Source: a virus
DNA: 40,776 bases
Virus genome (UHGV): UHGV-0210060
Strand: one strand, 5' to 3'
Below, piece after piece: positions 15,634 to 28,634 of the stretch (position 1 is its first letter; each line of letters opens with the position of its first letter). The notes under the pieces were generated by a model. The model was not told the DNA's origin, did no database searches, and worked only from the letters and a program-made list of their open reading frames with translations. The translations under genes were made by a program, and so were the position numbers.

Positions 15634-15852
15634 ATGTACTTGACACTTCAGGAGTGGAACGCACGCCAGCGACGCCCAAGAAGCCTTGAAACAGTTCGTC
15701 GATGGGTACGCGAGTGCAGGATATTCCCTCCTCCGGTTAAGGATGGAAGAGAGTATCTGTTCCACGAATCAGCGGTAAAGGTTGACTTAAATCGACCAGT
15801 AACAGGTAGCCTTTTGAAGAGGATCAAAAATGGGAAGAAGGCGAAGTCATGA
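15634..15852 (+). CDS. xis: excisionase Xis (lambda type)
   Basis: MYLTLQEWNARQRRPRSLETVRRWVRECRIFPPPVKDGREYLFHESAVKVDLNRP... is essentially lambda Xis. Confidence 0.95.
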   Translation: MYLTLQEWNARQRRPRSLETVRRWVRECRIFPPPVKDGREYLFHESAVKVDLNRPVTGSLLKRIKNGKKAKS

Positions 15853-16900
15853 GCGCCGGGATTTACCCCCTAATCTTTATATAAGAAACAATGGATATTA
15901 CTGCTACAGGGACCCAAGGACGGGTAAAGAGTTTGGATTAGGCCGAGACAGGAGGATAGCAATCACTGAAGCTATACAGGCCAACATTGAGTTATTTTCA
16001 GGACACAAACACAAGCCTCTGACAGCGAGAATCAACAGTGATAATTCTGTTACGTTACATTCATGGCTTGATCGCTACGAAAAAATCCTCGCCAACAGAG
16101 GAATCAAGCAGAAGACACTCATAAATTACATGAGCAAAATTAAAGCAATAAGGAGGGGGCTGCCTGATGCTCCACTTGAAGACATCACCACAAAAGAAAT
16201 TGCAGCAATGCTCAATGGATACATAGACGAGGGCAAGGCGGCGTCAGCCAAGTTAATCAGATCAACACTGAGCGATGCATTCCGAGAGGCAATAGCTGAA
16301 GGCCATATAACAACAAACCCGGTCACTGCCACTCGCGCAGCAAAATCAGAGGTAAGGAGATCAAGACTTACGGCTGACGAATACCTGAAAATTTATCAAG
16401 CAGCAGAATCATCACCATGTTGGCTTAGACTTGCAATGGAACTGGCTGTTGTTACCGGGCAGCGTGTTGGGGATTTATGCGAAATGAAGTGGTCTGATAT
16501 CGTAGATGGCTATCTTTATGTCGAGCAAAGCAAAACCGGCGTAAAAATTGCCATCCCAACAACATTGCATGTTGATGCTCTTGGGATATCAATGAAGGAA
16601 ACACTTGATAAATGCAAAGAGATTCTTGGCGGAGAAACCATAATTGCATCTACTCGTCGTGAACCGCTTTCATCCGGCACAGTATCAAGGTATTTTATGC
16701 GCGCACGAAAAGCATCAGGTCTTTCCTTCGAAGGGGATCCGCCTACCTTTCACGAGTTGCGCAGTTTGTCTGCAAGACTCTATGAGAAGCAGATAAGCGA
16801 TAAGTTTGCTCAACATCTTCTCGGGCATAAGTCGGACACCATGGCATCACAGTATCGTGATGACAGAGGCAGGGAGTGGGACAAAATTGAAATCAAATAA
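15830..16900 (+). CDS. int: integrase Int (lambda-type tyrosine recombinase)
   Basis: 356 aa; MGRRRSHERRDLPPNLYIRNNGYYCYRDPRTGKEFGLGRD... near-identical to lambda Int along its length; overlaps xis. Confidence 0.95.
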   Translation: MGRRRSHERRDLPPNLYIRNNGYYCYRDPRTGKEFGLGRDRRIAITEAIQANIELFSGHKHKPLTARINSDNSVTLHSWLDRYEKILANRGIKQKTLINYMSKIKAIRRGLPDAPLEDITTKEIAAMLNGYIDEGKAASAKLIRSTLSDAFREAIAEGHITTNPVTATRAAKSEVRRSRLTADEYLKIYQAAESSPCWLRLAMELAVVTGQRVGDLCEMKWSDIVDGYLYVEQSKTGVKIAIPTTLHVDALGISMKETLDKCKEILGGETIIASTRREPLSSGTVSRYFMRARKASGLSFEGDPPTFHELRSLSARLYEKQISDKFAQHLLGHKSDTMASQYRDDRGREWDKIEIK

Positions 16901-17130
16901 TGATTTTATTTTGACTGATAGTGACCTGTTCGTTGCAACAAATTGATAAGCAATGCTTTTTTATAATGCCAACTTAGTATAAAAAAGCTGAATGAGAAAC
17001 AAGAAAAATCATCAATATCAATGTGTTATGATGGTTTTGGTCTAAATAATAGACTACATAATACTGCAAAACACAGCATGTGCAGTCACTATGAATCAAC
17101 TACTTAGATGGTATTAGTGACCTGTAACAG
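16900..17130. other. attP (lambda-type core at 16974..16988 with P and P' arms)
   Basis: TTAGTATAAAAAAGC is the reverse complement of the lambda core GCTTTTTTATACTAA; the int-proximal arm matches lambda, the distal arm is recognisable but diverged. Confidence 0.85.
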
Positions 17131-17437
17131 AGCATTAGCGCAAGGTGATTTTTTTTCTTCTTGCGCTAATTTTTTGTCAACTCACTGGGTTAGTTGAATT
17201 TACAACCATGCTCAGTATCTCGATAAGCGCAGAGAAATGATGCAGTGGTGGGCGGACTGGCTTGATGAAAAGGTGGAGCAACCAACATTGCTATATCTCA
17301 GATAGCACAAAGCCTTGCAATCCAGTGCAAAGCCTTGTGTGTCTCAGTTTTGCCTCATAGGTAATGAGGCTTTAACTGCGATGCAGTAATCAATACTAAA
17401 ATTTACTTAAAATTCATAAATACACCAGATAAAAACA

Positions 17438-17459
17438 ATCCCGCATTTTTATGCGGGAT
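17438..17459 (-). terminator. intrinsic terminator after the tailspike gene
   Basis: ATCCCGCAT-tttt-ATGCGGGAT with a T-run on the minus strand. Confidence 0.7.
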
Positions 17460-17477
17460 ATACTGCATTTATTGCAA

Positions 17478-20183
17478 CTACATTGCCATTAATATAAACA
17501 TAGCCAATTCGTCATAACGAATTCCGTAGCGTCCTCCTGCTTTTTTTACAAGAATCATATCTCCTGTTTTATATTGAGAATAAATTTTCTCACCTGTATC
17601 AGGATCTGTGCTCTCTTCAGTTATCACCTCTTCATCCCATACGTCAGGCCATTCATCGTAACACCAAAAAGCATATTGCTCAGGGTTTAAACCATGCTTT
17701 CTAAGAATATCCCCTACGGTTTGAGCGCCAACGCCAAAATGATACCTGGACGACTCAATTCCTTTGTTATTAATTGAGTCATTAAATTTAAATTTATAGA
17801 TGACTGACTTTATTTCAATAGCGGCATCACGCTCTGCATTAAGAATATCATATCTTGTTTTAAGAGTTTCATCTGATGTATTGATTGACCCGGTTCCTGC
17901 ATAAATAACAGAGCATCTGTTTGATGGCTGTCCAATGGCTTTAACATTATCATCAACAGGAGCTATTTTATTAGCATCTGCCAACCACCAGTCTGTTCCA
18001 TCAGCGTGACCGATTCTTACTCTTATCCCACTTCTAATATTTAAACTTCCAGTATTACTCTGTAAATTACAATCTCCTGACGTTGGTCCAAGCAGTACAG
18101 TTTTACCAACACCACATACTACTCTGGCATTTCCTTTTTGTGATACGAGTCTTGACTCACCTCCTGACTGCTCAGGAAGAGATTTATGGTCTATAAATGC
18201 ATCGCGGGGGTTAAATACACCGTCTCCGGAATTATATCTTCCTCCTGTATAGTTGTTAAATACAGGACCCCAGTCAACGCCATTGCCTTCAGAGCACCCG
18301 ACCATTCTAAGCACTCGAGTATTCCCTGCTGCATATGGTAATGAGCTTGTTGATTGCCGGGAAGCTATCATACGTGCTCCATAACCAATAGCATTACCAC
18401 CATTTATAGTTACATATGCTTGCTGGCTTTCGAAATATGTACTGTAAAAGTTCATATTTCCACAGTCATGTAGATGAATAAGAACATCATCCCATCCCTG
18501 AATGGTTCCTGCATGTACCTGTACACCGCGAACTGGTTCCCCTGAAACCTCCATACACTCTGATGGTCGGCTGAATGGTTGAGACAGGTATTGCGATGTG
18601 GCAAGCAGATGTGTGTGGTGATACAGGCTGGTAATGTAGCAATCGAAAAATTGCGTTCCCGCCATACCAAAGTTATCTATGTCATTTCGCCGTATAGTAG
18701 AACCTACTGTTGCCTCAGAAGCGTTAGACACTCCAGTAAATACTAACTTATCACCGGATACGGATAATCCTGAATAAGTGAAATTCCTGCCTCCAGATCT
18801 TAAAACCCCGGACGTTTCGAAGGTGTGGCTTGCTGACCATGGTATTTCGATAGTGCTGGACGTTACCGCTGTAATTCGGAATACATCATGGGCGCGGATC
18901 GAAATACCCTTGAATCCTTGGAATCTACAGTGATAATAGTTTTCATCCTCGCCCTGAGCGGCCAGCGTGCCAGATACAGGAATGTTCGTTTTTAAAAGTG
19001 CCGTCTTGCGCCAGTATCCAACCACCTGCAAATTGCGGTATTCATTGCCAAAAGACGCACGTGACCAAATACCTACATCCCACTCATCGCCAAGACCGGT
19101 ATTTGCAATGTCTTTATAACCATCCAGCCCATTGAAATATGGAACAACACGAAAGTTCTCAAGGCGAACACATCCTGTCTCAGGCATCAATATTGCGGCA
19201 GAGAATGGTTTAAGCGTGGCTCTTGTAGTCCCATTAGCATCACCGTTAGTAAAATCCAATAAATCATATGATGACGCAGGTGCCGTTGTTGTATACGGGT
19301 CTTCGGAAGATGGGTTAGAAACCACACCACCACTAACATCCATATTAGAAACACAATCTACAGTATATTTTTTATTTCCTACCCCGTACATCAGGAATGT
19401 GGTCCCTGTGGTAATATCAGGAGCAAATGTTGCAGTATATCCTGAGACCCATTTGCCCACACCAAGACAAATTATCCCACCACCAGAAACAGGTGTTAAC
19501 GTATCCGTTATTACATACGCATTATCAGTACCATAAATAACCTTTCCTGTGTTAAGGGCAGCTTGCCACGCGGCCCAGTCTATTGACTGAGATAATGAGT
19601 CAACAAAAGGATATAAGGATTTTGCTTCAGAAATTGAAGAAAACCACTCAGATAATGGATGATATTTCCCATCCCCAATTGCTCCAAATTGTTTTACATT
19701 TAAGAAAAGAGCATTGTTTTCATGCTGAGTTATAGTTGCAGCCCCGGTAAATGGCTGCCTTACCCCAATTAATGCATCACCTTTTGAATCATCATTAATG
19801 TATGCTCCTGATTGAGATAACTGCTCTTTGAAGTCTGGGCCAAACTGATCTGGATCGTATTTTAATACATTTGGAAAATAAAACTGCTGAGTGCCATAAG
19901 CATCGTAAACAGCCATAGAATGGCCTTGCACGGTAACGAATTTGGCAATCTGTCCGTTATATACCGGATAACCAGCAGCGTTAATGATGATGGGTTGCGA
20001 AACAGGAGCGTGAGAACCGTCTTCGTTCTCCACATAAACCTGAATCTGGTTTTCAGGATTTACCGGGTCAGTGTCAATTTTACCGATATAAATTTTGCCA
20101 TTGGCTACGGCTTTAAAAGAACGAGCCATAGTGAAGAGTTGCGAAGGCATGCTTACCACAACATTGGCTGTAATGTCTGTCAT
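17478..20183 (-). CDS. tailspike (P22-type head-binding domain, beta-helix domain, C-terminal intramolecular chaperone)
   Basis: 901 aa; N-terminal ~110 aa match the P22 gp9 head-binding domain ([45 protein letters not shown] ... [12 protein letters not shown] ... NVLKYDPDQ); [10 protein letters not shown] glycosidase-like start; [11 protein letters not shown] near the C-terminus. Confidence 0.85.
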
Positions 20184-20325
20184 TTAATTTGCTCCAGATG
20201 CAAGGAATCGCCGCAGCATGGCTACGGTGAGTATTTGTTTGCTTTTTGCACTACACTTTTTGTGTAGTGCTATCTCTCAAGGCCATAGCCGCTGAGTAGC
20301 TACGATGAATTTTGGGCATAAAAAA

Positions 20326-22072: not shown

Positions 22073-23059
22073 TTAGATTTCTGGTTTTATTCTTCCAAAA
22101 ACCTTTTCTATTCCTTTTTCGTATTCTTCTCTTGTCTCGCTCATCGCTGCGACACCAAGAAGCTTACCGATATGCTGACGCAAAGCCTTGACACCAATTT
22201 CAGAAAGGAACAGGTGCAACTTATCAGATTGTTTTCCGTTCTCGTCTCGGCTGGCTCGAATCTGTTCAAGGATTTTACCTTTACTCTTTGCTAGCGGAGT
22301 GTATATCTGCATGTTGGTTAGTTGCCCAAAACGAATTGGACGTCCTTTCTCTGGCCTGTTCAGGCCGTACAGTCGATACCACTCCTCATATAGCTCATCT
22401 GGAAATTCTTTTTCATACTGCCTCGCCTCTTCACGAACAAAGGCCTTGAAGGAATCAATAACCTCCTGTACTTCAGGTCGATATCCTGCAATAGCATAAC
22501 CAAGTCCTTTAAGCCCTGCTTTCATTGATGCGGTAACAAGTCTTTGGGCAAGGCTGGCAGATTTTGATCTTGAAGGCGGTAGTGCGCCAGCTCGATCGGC
22601 ATTAATCATTGCTGTGGCTATATCACCGATAAGGGCAATATCGTAACCGTGAGCCTCATCAGCGAGTGGATTTGGGGCTGAGTTTGGGACCGGACTTCTC
22701 CATTGAAAAATAAGAGGTTTTTTGAATTTTTCTAGCAGAAATGGATCAACAAAATCAGCCATATAATTCGTATTTAGAAAACGGTCTACATCCCTACCAT
22801 GCTCACCGATTCCTAGTAATTTAGCCAGACCAGTTTTACTAACTACAACCGTTTTATCATTATCATCAAGTACGTAACATTCTGCATCAATGCCGAAATC
22901 ATCAATGAAGTTACCCTTTCTGATCGCTCTTAGTGGCTTACCTTCCCATCGTTTTGCCGCTGCTTTCTTTGCTATTTCAGAACGCTGCTCTTTAGTCAGC
23001 GACTTTGCGCGAGCGATCCCGCCCTTAGCTTTCCCTTCGCCACTTTTCTTTTCAGTCAT
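22073..23059 (-). CDS. hypothetical protein (328 aa), possibly P63C-domain-like, basic N-terminus; sieA-position moron
   Basis: Start at Met26 of the listed ORF, embedded in an operator-like repeat array; N-terminus GGIARAKSLTKEQRSEIAKKAAAKRW. Domain call is from memory and weak. Confidence 0.55.
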   Translation of the reverse strand: MTEKKSGEGKAKGGIARAKSLTKEQRSEIAKKAAAKRWEGKPLRAIRKGNFIDDFGIDAECYVLDDNDKTVVVSKTGLAKLLGIGEHGRDVDRFLNTNYMADFVDPFLLEKFKKPLIFQWRSPVPNSAPNPLADEAHGYDIALIGDIATAMINADRAGALPPSRSKSASLAQRLVTASMKAGLKGLGYAIAGYRPEVQEVIDSFKAFVREEARQYEKEFPDELYEEWYRLYGLNRPEKGRPIRFGQLTNMQIYTPLAKSKGKILEQIRASRDENGKQSDKLHLFLSEIGVKALRQHIGKLLGVAAMSETREEYEKGIEKVFGRIKPEI

Positions 23060-23152
23060 AATGCAAGCACCTTTGTTGTGATGTATGCTTGCATTATATG
23101 CACTGTACACACATACAAGCAAGCATAAAACCAAAACAAAATGCTTGCATTA
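23058..23152. promoter_or_regulatory. operator-like array: four copies of ATGCTTGCAT-type motif in alternating orientation
   Basis: TAATGCAAGCA (23058..23068), ATGCTTGCATTAT (23083..23095), CAAGCAAGCAT (23117..23127), ATGCTTGCATTA (23141..23152); the first copy overlaps the start codon of the 328-aa gene; CATATAAT -10-like element on the minus strand. Confidence 0.55.
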
Positions 23153-27332: not shown

Positions 27333-27789
27333 TTATTAGCTCCTCATATTTCGAACGAGGTAATTGATAGAGGGTGATTCCTACCGGTTTTCCGTTACTC
27401 ATGTACGCATCATCAAGGTGACCAACACGGGTAGCGCCAAGCAAACGGATAATTGCCCGTCCGTATTTCGTGGTGTCAGGAACCATGGTAATGCTGTTAA
27501 GGAATGGTGAGTTTTCGAGAAGCCATTTGCAGAATAATCGATGCCCTTGCAGTGCATATTCACCACGGAATCCGGGGTCGTACACCGCATGGCATTCAAC
27601 AACGCTATGCCAGAAGTTACGCACTTCATGAACGCCAGCCAGCACTAATCCTTCGTAGATGCCGAGGTATACCGCATCAGGCTTGATGTAGTATTTATCT
27701 CCACTGTCTACGATATTTCCCGTGTTTGCCGGGTTGTTAAGGAATTCTGCAAGCTTCACCGGGTTATCGATGAGCTTTATTTCCATCAC
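27319..27789 (-). CDS. P22 gp14-like virion protein
   Basis: 156 aa; sits between tail needle and gp7-like gene as in P22. Confidence 0.5.
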
Positions 27790-28634
27790 TGCTCCGCAAT
27801 GATTTTGATGGTTGTGGCAGTAAACGCCGCACCATTCGACTGAATGGTTAACGTGCTGCCATTTGTGGCAAGAAAGCCGTCTTTATCCACGCTGAAGAAC
27901 GTAGCTAACAGGATGTTGTCGGTTGTTGTCGCCGAGTTGCGACTGCTTACCAGTGTGTCAGGAACAGAGCCGGAAAAGGTTAGCTGCATTGACCTGTTGG
28001 CTGTTCCGCTGGGCCACGTCCCGACGATCGACAGCTTGAAGAACAAGGTTTTGTTCTCGTTGAACACAACCATCTTGTTATTAACGGTGTCGAAGAATGG
28101 TGCCAACGTCCCGGATGACGGCGTGAGCGTTTTCAGCAGGCTAACAAGGTTGGTCGGCGCTGTCGGGATGGTTACAGATACGCCAGAGTAAACAACCTCT
28201 GACTTCTTGCGAGTAGTGGCATACTCCAGAGCATCGATGCGCGTTTCATGGTCTGAAACCTGCGATTCCAGCGACTGAACTCTGGTATCAAGCGACGCAA
28301 TATCGCTTTCATTCTGAGCTATTCGTGTTTCATGTTCCTGAAGAGTTGATTCTGCCTGGCTGATTCGCTCCTCATGATTAACAAGCGTTGCTTCCGCAGC
28401 AGAAATTCGCTGCTCATGGTCAGCGAGAATCACATCCTGCTCATCGTTCCTGACTTGTGCGTCATAAGCGCCCTGCCCTGCTTCGTTGGCCTTGTTAGCC
28501 ACGTTACCAACATCAGTGCCCTGTGCGATAACGTAAAGCAGATACGACTGCGAGAAGATATTGCGTGGAAGGACTGATGTGTCGAGCCGTGTAGCCCGAA
28601 TGATTACCGGCACATTGAGATTCGAATCCGCCAT
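27786..28634 (-). CDS. tail needle (P22 gp26 / Sf6 gp9 type, with C-terminal knob)
   Basis: N-terminus [67 protein letters not shown] close to P22 gp26; heptad coiled coil; 282 aa as in Sf6. Confidence 0.85.

What the first reader, a model, noticed from the sequence alone, without database searches (positions are those of the whole stretch)
17478..20183. Chimeric tailspike: P22 head-binding domain, different receptor domain, C-terminal self-cleaving chaperone signature
The first ~110 residues are P22 gp9-like, so the spike docks onto a P22-type tail. The central part begins with a [10 protein letters not shown] glycosidase-like element and is unlike the P22 endorhamnosidase. Near the C-terminus, [11 protein letters not shown] followed by a ~150-aa domain resembles the intramolecular chaperone (peptidase S74-type) of endosialidases and tail fibres, which is cleaved off at the serine before DExLK. 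This implies a host range or receptor glycan different from P22 and Sf6.
Basis: partly seen in the sequence, partly recalled or inferred. Interest (0 to 1): 0.5.

Follow-up and report, generated by a model that had tools for sequence, protein, structure and literature searches.

The report
Modular capsule-targeting P22-type phage tailspike
This is an ordinary modular phage tailspike: a P22-type attachment domain, a beta-helix sugar-cutting domain and a self-cleaving folding domain. The bacteria that carry it suggest it targets the ribose-Kdo capsule of E. coli K13/K20/K23-type strains rather than an O-antigen.

Summary
The minus-strand ORF 17478-20183 encodes a 901-aa tailspike.

- **N-terminus (aa 1-113):** a full P22-type head-binding domain (Pfam E=2.8e-66).
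- **Centre (aa ~150-700):** a right-handed beta-helix with no sequence similarity to the P22 enzyme and only fold-level similarity to Sf6 past aa 175. It belongs to a large family with no Pfam model.
- **C-terminus (aa 770-901):** an S74-type intramolecular chaperone. Ser770, Lys775, Arg756 and Asp745 align with the catalytic residues of the phage T5 and K1F chaperones. Predicted cleavage is at Thr769|Ser770 (83 + 15 kDa).

The architecture is not new. Phage CUS-3 has the same N- and C-terminal modules around an endosialidase, and RefSeq already names this protein a tailspike.

What I add:
- The receptor module recurs at about 99% DNA identity in epsilon15-like prophages and at 72-78% protein identity in T7-like phage YZ1.
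- Among 5,426 complete E. coli genomes, 12 of the 15 carrying the module also carry krkA. This gene is the K13/K20/K23 capsule polymerase and occurs in only 65 genomes.
- Only 2 of the 15 share an O-antigen gene.

The receptor is therefore probably this capsule. That is an inference; no activity was tested.

The parts
17478..20183 (-). Tailspike gene, 901 aa plus stop codon
   Evidence: ORF list and translation. An identical protein is in public E. coli records, named 'phage tailspike protein'.
20192..20195 (-). GGAG ribosome-binding site, 8 nt upstream of the ATG
   Evidence: Upstream sequence read directly.
19845..20183 (-). aa 1-113: P22-type head-binding (tail-attachment) domain
   Evidence: Pfam PF09008 E=2.8e-66 over 1-113/113. 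PDB matches to Sf6 gp14 and the P22 tailspike N-terminus. 89% identity to CUS-3.
19785..19853 (-). aa 111-133: module junction where the head-binding anchor is exchanged
   Evidence: DNA matches to other P22-like phages stop at nt 314-374 of the gene. The epsilon15-like variant matches from nt 399. Protein identity to that variant starts at aa 111.
19668..19697 (-). aa 163-172: [10 protein letters not shown], the conserved start (cap) of the beta-helix
   Evidence: Motif position. Family consensus is VxDFGAxGDG. It matches LKA1 gp49 and phi297 tailspikes at aa 161-237.
18084..19736 (-). aa ~150-700: right-handed parallel beta-helix, the predicted polysaccharide-binding and depolymerase domain
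17877..18083 (-). aa 701-769: C-terminal stalk leading to the cleavage site, carrying Asp745 and Arg756
   Evidence: Partial Pfam End_tail_spike match at aa 735-769, below cut-off. It aligns with the pre-cleavage segments of 3gw6, 4uw8, 4hiz and 4uw7.
17859..17891 (-). aa 765-775: [11 protein letters not shown], with predicted scissile bond Thr769|Ser770 and Ser770-Lys775 dyad
   Evidence: Ser770 aligns with the mutated serine of 3gw6 (S911A) and 4uw8 (S1264A). Lys775 aligns with the T5 Lys1269 (PMC4690869). K775 and D745 are invariant, and R756, T769, S770 and D771 nearly invariant, in 26 homologues.
17481..17876 (-). aa 770-901: S74-type C-terminal intramolecular chaperone domain (132 aa, 15.3 kDa)
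   Evidence: Pfam PF13884 above cut-off. Profile E=1e-37 to 9e-54 against all solved chaperones. The model has pLDDT above 90 from aa ~770 on, and its top fold matches are only 3gw6, 4uw8, 3gud and MyRF ICA.
17438..17459 (-). Intrinsic terminator-like hairpin with T-run just after the stop codon
   Evidence: Terminator scan and direct reading.

Best explanation
The gene encodes a three-module tailspike of a P22-like temperate coliphage.

(1) aa 1-113 dock the trimer onto the P22-type tail hub.

(2) aa ~150-700 form a right-handed beta-helix that binds, and most likely hydrolyses, a surface polysaccharide. From the hosts that carry it, that polysaccharide is probably the group 2 capsule with the ->3)-beta-Ribf-(1->7)-beta-Kdop-(2-> backbone, as in K13, K20, K23 and close variants. 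It is probably not an O-antigen.

(3) aa 770-901 are an intramolecular chaperone. It drives trimer folding and then cuts itself off at Thr769|Ser770, using Ser770 as nucleophile and Lys775 as base, helped by Arg756 and Asp745. The mature spike would be about 83 kDa.

The receptor module (aa ~111-901) moves as one unit between unrelated phage types.

Shown here: the domain identities, the conserved catalytic residues, the module exchange and the host association. Inferred, not shown: cleavage, enzymatic activity, which bond is cut, and the capsule as the true receptor.
For: Domains.

P22-type virion genes in the window.

Module exchange:
- nt 399-2705 is 98.5-98.7% identical in seven E. coli genomes, fused there to a different N-terminus.
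- That N-terminus is 78-81% identical to the phiV10 and epsilon15 anchors.
- The centre is 78% identical in Kayfunavirus YZ1 and 42% in Vectrevirus phages.

Host association:
- The lysogen YDC107 has a kps locus whose region 2 is only a 1,114-aa polymerase plus an acetyltransferase.
- That polymerase is 95.7% identical to KrkA (WP_001336789) of the K13 reference strain NCTC9022. KrkA was shown biochemically to make the Rib-Kdo repeat (PMC12887879).
- krkA occurs in 65 of 5,426 genomes, but in 12 of the 15 with this receptor domain. Fisher exact p=1.3e-21, not corrected for relatedness.
- Only 2 of the 15 share the O102 wzy of YDC107.
- The carriers include two phage types, at least three distinct integration sites plus one unresolved, and two krkA alleles with unrelated acetyltransferases.
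- An earlier study noted that YZ1-like receptor proteins occur across several O serogroups and suggested a K-antigen as receptor (PMC10408124).
Against: - Three of the 15 carriers lack krkA and have other region 2 genes (seen directly in LS45 and 23CRST013; XH992 shows no krkA match). In LS45 the flanking kps proteins have the same accessions as in YDC107, which fits a later capsule switch, but that is an interpretation.
- The statistics are not corrected for shared ancestry.
- No close solved homologue exists for the central domain.
- The Pfam S74 score is only just above the cut-off for the single sequence.
- Nothing here shows cleavage or enzymatic activity.
Confidence: 0.7

Rival explanations
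1. The central domain is an O-antigen-specific endoglycosidase, like the tailspikes of P22, Sf6 and HK620. The capsule association is then a by-product of lineage.
For: Most characterised P22-like tailspikes target O-antigens. The best fold match by Foldseek is the Sf6 tailspike. The N-terminal 175 aa resemble Sf6 gp14.
Against: Only 2 of 15 carriers share the O102 polymerase gene of YDC107, against 12 of 15 for krkA. krkA-positive genomes include strains labelled O25b:H4 and O102:H6, as well as the K13 reference strain NCTC9022. Close relatives of this receptor protein were reported in O102, O6, O1 and O153 strains (PMC10408124).
Confidence: 0.1
2. The beta-helix recognises another surface glycan or structure that merely co-occurs with krkA-type strains, or it only binds without cutting.
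For: The association is correlative. Three carriers have other K loci. No catalytic residues were assigned.
Against: The carriers have at least three distinct integration sites, two phage types and mostly different O loci, so krkA is the one shared feature found. Acidic and basic residues are nearly invariant across a family of more than 100 aligned members, as expected for an enzyme.
Confidence: 0.12
3. The C-terminal domain is a retained structural or receptor-binding tip, and it is not cleaved off.
For: No processing data exist for this protein. The Pfam score of the single sequence is marginal.
Against: Ser770, Lys775, Arg756 and Asp745 are all present and conserved. The mature crystallised forms 4hiz and 4uw7 end exactly at the aligned position. 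The fold matches only known self-cleaving chaperones.
Confidence: 0.08

Closest known systems
Endosialidase tailspike of coliphage CUS-3 (P22-like, K1 capsule-specific)
   Same: Same architecture and the same kind of phage. The P22-type head-binding domain is 89% identical over aa 1-125. The C-terminal chaperone domain is 36% identical (E=3e-21) and has the same TSDxTLK site. It is also a capsule-targeting spike on a temperate P22-like phage.
   Different: The catalytic centre of CUS-3 is an endosialidase with no sequence similarity to this one; here it is a beta-helix. CUS-3 carries the neuO capsule-modifying element downstream of the spike. Here, only attP and int follow.
K1F endosialidase C-terminal chaperone (3GW6), T5 pb1 chaperone (4UW8) and GA-1 neck appendage chaperone (3GUD): MEROPS/Pfam Peptidase_S74
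   Same: The sequence profile matches at E=1e-37 to 3e-42. The Ser-Lys dyad and the Arg and Asp helpers are conserved. The size is about the same (132 aa against 133 in T5). The predicted fold matches.
   Different: It is attached to a different receptor domain. Self-cleavage has not been shown for this protein.
Sf6 tailspike (gp14) and P22 tailspike (gp9)
   Same: The head-binding domain is shared, with 85% DNA identity to Sf6 over nt 1-374 and about 68% protein identity to P22. Sf6 similarity extends through the neck to aa 175. All have a right-handed beta-helix body.
   Different: Beyond aa 175 there is no sequence similarity. P22 and Sf6 have no cleavable chaperone. Both are endorhamnosidases acting on O-antigens.
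Tail fibre/spike of Kayfunavirus YZ1 and the 991-aa 'tail fiber domain-containing protein' of epsilon15-like E. coli prophages (such as YDC107)
   Same: They carry the same receptor and chaperone module. The prophage protein is 96.6% identical over aa 111-901. YZ1 is 72% identical over aa 131-901, and 78% in the centre.
   Different: The N-terminal anchors differ: T7 tail-fibre type in YZ1 and phiV10/epsilon15 type in the prophages.

Membership tests
P22-type tailspike head-binding domain (Pfam PF09008) | Full-length match to the family model above the curated cut-off | tested here: met
   E=2.8e-66, 221 bits against a cut-off of 24, covering 1-113 of 113 positions.
P22-type tailspike head-binding domain (Pfam PF09008) | Similarity to solved head-binding domains | tested here: met
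   Sf6 gp14 (7sg7) E=1e-85. P22 entries 2vky, 1lkt and 8tvr E=1e-44 to 1e-51.
P22-type tailspike head-binding domain (Pfam PF09008) | Encoded with a P22-type tail hub (gp4, gp10, gp26) for the domain to dock on | tested here: met
   PHROG matches for portal, Ad3 (gp4-like), Hc3 (gp10-like), tail needle with knob, and ejection protein.
P22-type tailspike head-binding domain (Pfam PF09008) | Physical binding to the tail | not testable with these tools
   Needs virion analysis or binding assays.
Peptidase S74 / C-terminal intramolecular chaperone domain | Match to the family model or to solved members | tested here: met
   PF13884 scores 24.2 bits against a cut-off of 22. A profile of 26 homologues gives E=9e-54 (7y5s), 3e-42 (4uw8), 4e-42 (3gud) and 1e-37 (3gw6).
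Peptidase S74 / C-terminal intramolecular chaperone domain | Catalytic Ser-Lys dyad (S-x4-K) plus the Arg and Asp helpers described for T5 pb1 | tested here: met
   Ser770, Lys775, Arg756 and Asp745 align with T5 Ser1264, Lys1269, Arg1250 and Asp1239. They are invariant or nearly so in 26 homologues.
Peptidase S74 / C-terminal intramolecular chaperone domain | Chaperone fold at the extreme C-terminus | tested here: met
   AlphaFold2 pLDDT is above 90 from aa ~770 to 901. The only significant Foldseek matches are 3gw6, 4uw8 and 3gud (TM up to 0.76 on the target), with MyRF ICA weaker.
Peptidase S74 / C-terminal intramolecular chaperone domain | Autoproteolytic release after trimer folding | not testable with these tools
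   Needs SDS-PAGE or mass spectrometry of wild type against S770A.
P22 / Sf6 endorhamnosidase catalytic domain | Sequence similarity of the central beta-helix to gp9 or gp14 | tested here: not met
   The P22 match ends at aa 121 and the Sf6 match at aa 175. Beyond that only fold-level similarity is found, at 9-16% identity.
Endosialidase (GH58) catalytic domain | Match to the endosialidase catalytic domain | tested here: not met
   Only the last 35 positions of PF12219 (the stalk) match, below the cut-off. The CUS-3 centre is unrelated in sequence.
Pectate-lyase-like right-handed beta-helix depolymerases | Right-handed parallel beta-helix fold with the xDFGAxGDG cap motif | tested here: met
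K13/K20/K23 (Rib-Kdo) capsule-specific phage depolymerase | Carried by phages whose hosts make that capsule | tested here: met
   12 of 15 carrier genomes have krkA, against 65 of 5,426 overall. Only 2 of 15 share an O-antigen gene.
K13/K20/K23 (Rib-Kdo) capsule-specific phage depolymerase | Degrades the purified polysaccharide and needs the capsule for adsorption | not testable with these tools
   Needs enzyme and adsorption assays.

The most novel reading that the evidence does not exclude
This receptor module would be the gene for a phage enzyme specific for the K13/K20/K23 capsule. As I recall, that activity was described biochemically in the 1980s as a virion glycanase cutting beta-Kdo ketosidic bonds; I could not find or read those papers here. 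I found no sequence assigned to it in the searchable literature. If so, the large unannotated beta-helix family it belongs to, with its nearly invariant three arginines, His, Asp and two Glu, could include a new class of Kdo- or ulosonic-acid-directed endoglycosidases.
Probability: 0.3. Interest if true: 0.6.

Novelty: new member of a known kind. Interest (0 to 1): 0.35.

Why it matters
The architecture itself is textbook phage modularity and is already annotated as a tailspike.

The useful part is the likely receptor. K13_K23 is reported among the capsule types most associated with invasive E. coli disease (PMC13171606). I found no sequenced depolymerase for it in the searchable literature.

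If confirmed, this protein would be:
- a ready reagent for typing or stripping that capsule;
- a second example, after CUS-3 (K1), of a temperate P22-like phage that uses a group 2 capsule as receptor;
- an entry point to the biochemistry of a large uncharacterised beta-helix family.

Tried and rejected
- **Pfam on the central domain** gave nothing at E<=1. PHROG 33794 covers it but has no known function.
- **The first homologue search** returned only near-identical proteins and was of no use for diversity. The exhaustive representative search supplied the diverse alignment instead.
- **Mapping conserved residues onto the model** could not be done, since model coordinates are not exposed. The active site is therefore unassigned.
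- **Literature searches** for YZ1, KMB14 and LF31_P3 hosts, and for K13/K20 phage enzymes, found nothing usable.
- **Divergent krkA in the three exceptions** was considered. Two of them (LS45, 23CRST013) were seen directly to have a different region 2.
- **An O-antigen receptor** was tested with a combined query and rejected as the shared factor.

Full report
**1. The observation**

The window holds a minus-strand ORF at exactly 17478-20183, encoding 901 aa. It starts [10 protein letters not shown], as P22 gp9 does. A GGAG lies 8 nt upstream of the ATG, and a hairpin plus T-run follows 18 nt after the stop codon. [10 protein letters not shown] is at aa 163-172 and [11 protein letters not shown] at aa 765-775.

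Pfam reports three matches:
- Head_binding over its whole length (aa 1-113, E=2.8e-66);
- Peptidase_S74 starting at aa 770 (E=4e-5; 24.2 bits, cut-off 22);
- a sub-threshold match of aa 735-769 to the last 35 positions of the endosialidase tailspike model.

The rest of the window is a P22-like phage genome. It has a portal, a coat protein, gp4-, gp10- and gp26-like tail hub proteins, and ejection proteins. The spike therefore has a P22-type tail to dock on.

**2. N-terminal module**

The best solved relatives are Sf6 gp14 (aa 1-175, E=1e-85) and the P22 head-binding domain (E=1e-44 to 1e-51). CUS-3 is 89% identical over aa 1-125.

At DNA level, 28 of the 29 matching phage records share only nt 1 to 314-374 of the gene, at 84-93% identity. 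They are P22-like phages such as Sf6, HK620, CUS-3 and epsilon34. The remaining record, YDC107_2, shares the rest of the gene instead.

**3. Central module**

There is no sequence similarity to P22 beyond aa 121 or to Sf6 beyond aa 175.

An exhaustive search found 1,346 clusters of relatives at E<=0.001, and 158 at E<=1e-30. No Pfam family covers this domain, and PHROG 33794, which does, has no known function.

Nearly invariant residues across the family are R345, D369, R430, H522, E545, R552 and E585. I could not place them in three dimensions, because model coordinates are not exposed.

The [10 protein letters not shown] element is the conserved start of the helix. The family consensus is VxDFGAxGDG.

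**4. C-terminal module**

The last 200 aa match every solved intramolecular chaperone by single-sequence search:
- Klebsiella phage Kp7 fibre, 7y5s: E=5e-23
- 9vvr: E=1e-15
- K1F endosialidase chaperone, 3gw6: E=2e-14
- T5 pb1, 4uw8: E=7e-12
- 6eu4: E=5e-11
- 3gud: E=3e-9

In those alignments Ser770 lies opposite the alanine that replaces the catalytic serine in 3gw6 and 4uw8. Lys775 lies opposite the T5 Lys1269, Arg756 opposite Arg1250 and Asp745 opposite Asp1239. The T5 paper assigns exactly these residues to the reaction and places the cut at Thr1263-Ser1264 (PMC4690869). The corresponding bond here is Thr769|Ser770.

In an alignment of 26 diverse homologues, D745 and K775 are invariant, and R756, T769, S770 and D771 are nearly so. 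A profile of that alignment scores E=9e-54 to 8e-36 against the six chaperone-containing structures. The two mature, already-cleaved crystal forms (4hiz, 4uw7) end exactly at the aligned site.

A separate AlphaFold2 model of aa 700-901 has pLDDT above 90 from about aa 770 to the end. Its only significant fold matches are 3gw6, 4uw8 and 3gud, followed more weakly by the eukaryotic MyRF ICA domain.

The predicted products are 83.0 kDa (aa 1-769) and 15.3 kDa (aa 770-901).

Of 150 representative relatives of the beta-helix, 63 also carry such a chaperone and only 2 carry a P22-type head-binding domain.

**5. Modularity**

Fifteen of 5,426 complete E. coli genomes carry the receptor part at 98.4-99.5% DNA identity.
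- Eight have the full P22-type gene.
- Seven have nt 399-2705 fused to another N-terminus, giving a 991-aa protein.

That other N-terminus is 78-81% identical to the anchors of phiV10 and epsilon15. It sits next to holin and GH19 endolysin genes. Protein identity between the two forms starts at aa 111.

The T7-like Kayfunavirus YZ1 has the same module behind a T7-type anchor, with 72% identity over aa 131-901. Two SP6-like Vectrevirus phages have a 42% identical centre.

Another common P22-type prophage tailspike shares only the two end modules at DNA level. Its centre is a distant relative, 39% identical.

The tailspike region is also AT-richer (37-44% GC) than the virion genes (49-52%).

**6. 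What it probably binds**

I looked at the surface-polysaccharide loci of the carriers.

*The capsule locus.* In YDC107 the group 2 kps locus has a region 2 of just two genes, a 1,114-aa 'HAD family hydrolase' and an O-acetyltransferase. The large protein is 95.7% identical to WP_001336789 of NCTC9022. That is the protein a 2026 JBC paper names KrkA. The paper shows it to be the sole polymerase of the ->3)-beta-Ribf-(1->7)-beta-Kdop-(2-> repeat of K13, K20 and K23 (PMC12887879).

*Co-occurrence with krkA.* krkA is rare, found in 65 of 5,426 genomes. A combined query of tailspike centre plus a krkA segment shows that 12 of the 15 carriers have it. Fisher exact p=1.3e-21, uncorrected for relatedness.

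*O-antigen control.* YDC107 is O102 by annotation. The same trick with its O102 wzy shows that only 2 of the 15 carriers share it.

*Independence of the carriers.* They are not one clone. The P22-like prophages sit next to vat (two strains), at argW, at the lambda site ybhB-bioA, and next to another integrase whose chromosomal site I could not resolve. The epsilon15-like prophage of YDC107 lies next to yfgI and ppx.

*Two locus variants.* Two krkA alleles are involved, at about 100% and 97% DNA identity to YDC107. Their acetyltransferases are only 36% identical. This suggests that the backbone is what matters, not the acetylation pattern.

*The exceptions.* Three carriers show no krkA match. 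In LS45 and 23CRST013 I saw a different region 2 directly; XH992, also from Zhejiang and sharing island content with LS45, was not inspected at its kps locus. In LS45 the flanking kps proteins have the same accessions as in YDC107. This fits a capsule switch after lysogeny, but that is my interpretation.

*Earlier hint.* A previous study noted that YZ1-like receptor proteins occur in O102, O6, O1 and O153 strains, and suggested a K-antigen receptor without naming one (PMC10408124).

**7. Mechanism: shown and inferred**

Shown: the three modules, the conserved catalytic set of the chaperone, the exchange of the receptor module between phage types, and the host association.

Inferred:
- that the chaperone trimerises the stalk and then releases itself, by analogy with K1F and T5;
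- that the beta-helix is an enzyme, because conserved acidic and basic residues suggest it;
- that the substrate is the Rib-Kdo capsule.

A hydrolase seems more likely than a lyase, because the backbone has no 4-linked uronic acid. That rests on general carbohydrate chemistry, not on a test. From memory, virion glycanases cutting beta-Kdo bonds in K13, K20 and K23 capsules were described in the 1980s by Altmann, Stirm and co-workers. I could not retrieve those papers, so this is only a lead.

**8. Comparison and novelty**

The closest precedent is the CUS-3 tailspike. It has the same anchor, the same kind of chaperone and the same phage type, and it is capsule-specific, but it has an endosialidase centre.

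The protein is already called 'phage tailspike protein' in RefSeq. It is therefore a new member of a known kind.

The capsule assignment is the new element. No paper in the searchable library links a sequence to K13, K20 or K23 phage specificity.

**9. Verdict**

The finding is ordinary in kind and modestly interesting for the likely receptor.

Noticed in passing
window 15830-16988: The integrase (356 aa) reads, from my recollection of the lambda sequence, as nearly identical to lambda Int. The exact lambda attP core GCTTTTTTATACTAA lies at 16974-16988, between int and the tailspike. One related prophage (UPEC_U013) indeed sits at ybhB-bioA, the lambda attachment site. This is a P22-like phage with a lambda integration module.
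   Followed up: partly
window 16900-17478: No capsule- or O-antigen-modifying gene (such as neuO in CUS-3 or gtrABC in P22) follows the tailspike. Only about 580 bp of AT-rich non-coding DNA with attP lies there.
   Followed up: partly
window 17000-20000: The tailspike region has 37-44% GC, against 49-52% in the virion genes at 24-36 kb. This is consistent with a module acquired from elsewhere.
   Followed up: no
window 22073-23134 (-): A 353-aa ORF lies in the immI-like region between the ejection genes and ant. It matches only PHROG 2384, which has no known function.
   Followed up: no
window 27786-28634 (-): The tail needle (gp26-like) carries a C-terminal knob domain (PHROG 'tail needle knob'). 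From memory, Sf6 has such a knob and P22 does not.
   Followed up: no
E. coli SBF22, DLL7555 and 702/18: These three genomes carry two copies of the same receptor module. From the annotations and the counts, they appear to be one on a P22-like and one on an epsilon15-like prophage. In 702/18 the P22-type gene is split by an IS3 element.
   Followed up: partly
L012 (E. coli LS45, 852760-872705) compared with L008/L009 (YDC107): The KpsF, KpsE, KpsD, KpsU and KpsC protein accessions are identical in both strains. Region 2 is entirely different: seven genes including glf and ugd, against krkA plus an acetyltransferase. This looks like a recent capsule switch by replacement of region 2 in a strain that kept the prophage.
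   Followed up: partly
L009 734-1480 compared with L024 1545-2282: The YDC107-type krkA locus has an O-acetyltransferase only 36% identical to that of the K13 reference strain, although KrkA is 95.7% identical. It is probably an unnamed variant of the K13/K20/K23 capsule group.
   Followed up: partly
protein P0269 (representative homologue): One chaperone-domain homologue has Cys in place of the catalytic Ser (INTCDGREK). This may be a cysteine-nucleophile variant of the self-cleaving domain.
   Followed up: no
L004 3001-5475 (E. coli prophage tailspike, 824 aa): A different P22-type prophage tailspike shares only the head-binding and chaperone ends with this one at DNA level. Its centre is 39% identical and from the same beta-helix family. 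Its receptor is unknown, and the same host-association approach could be applied to it.
   Followed up: no
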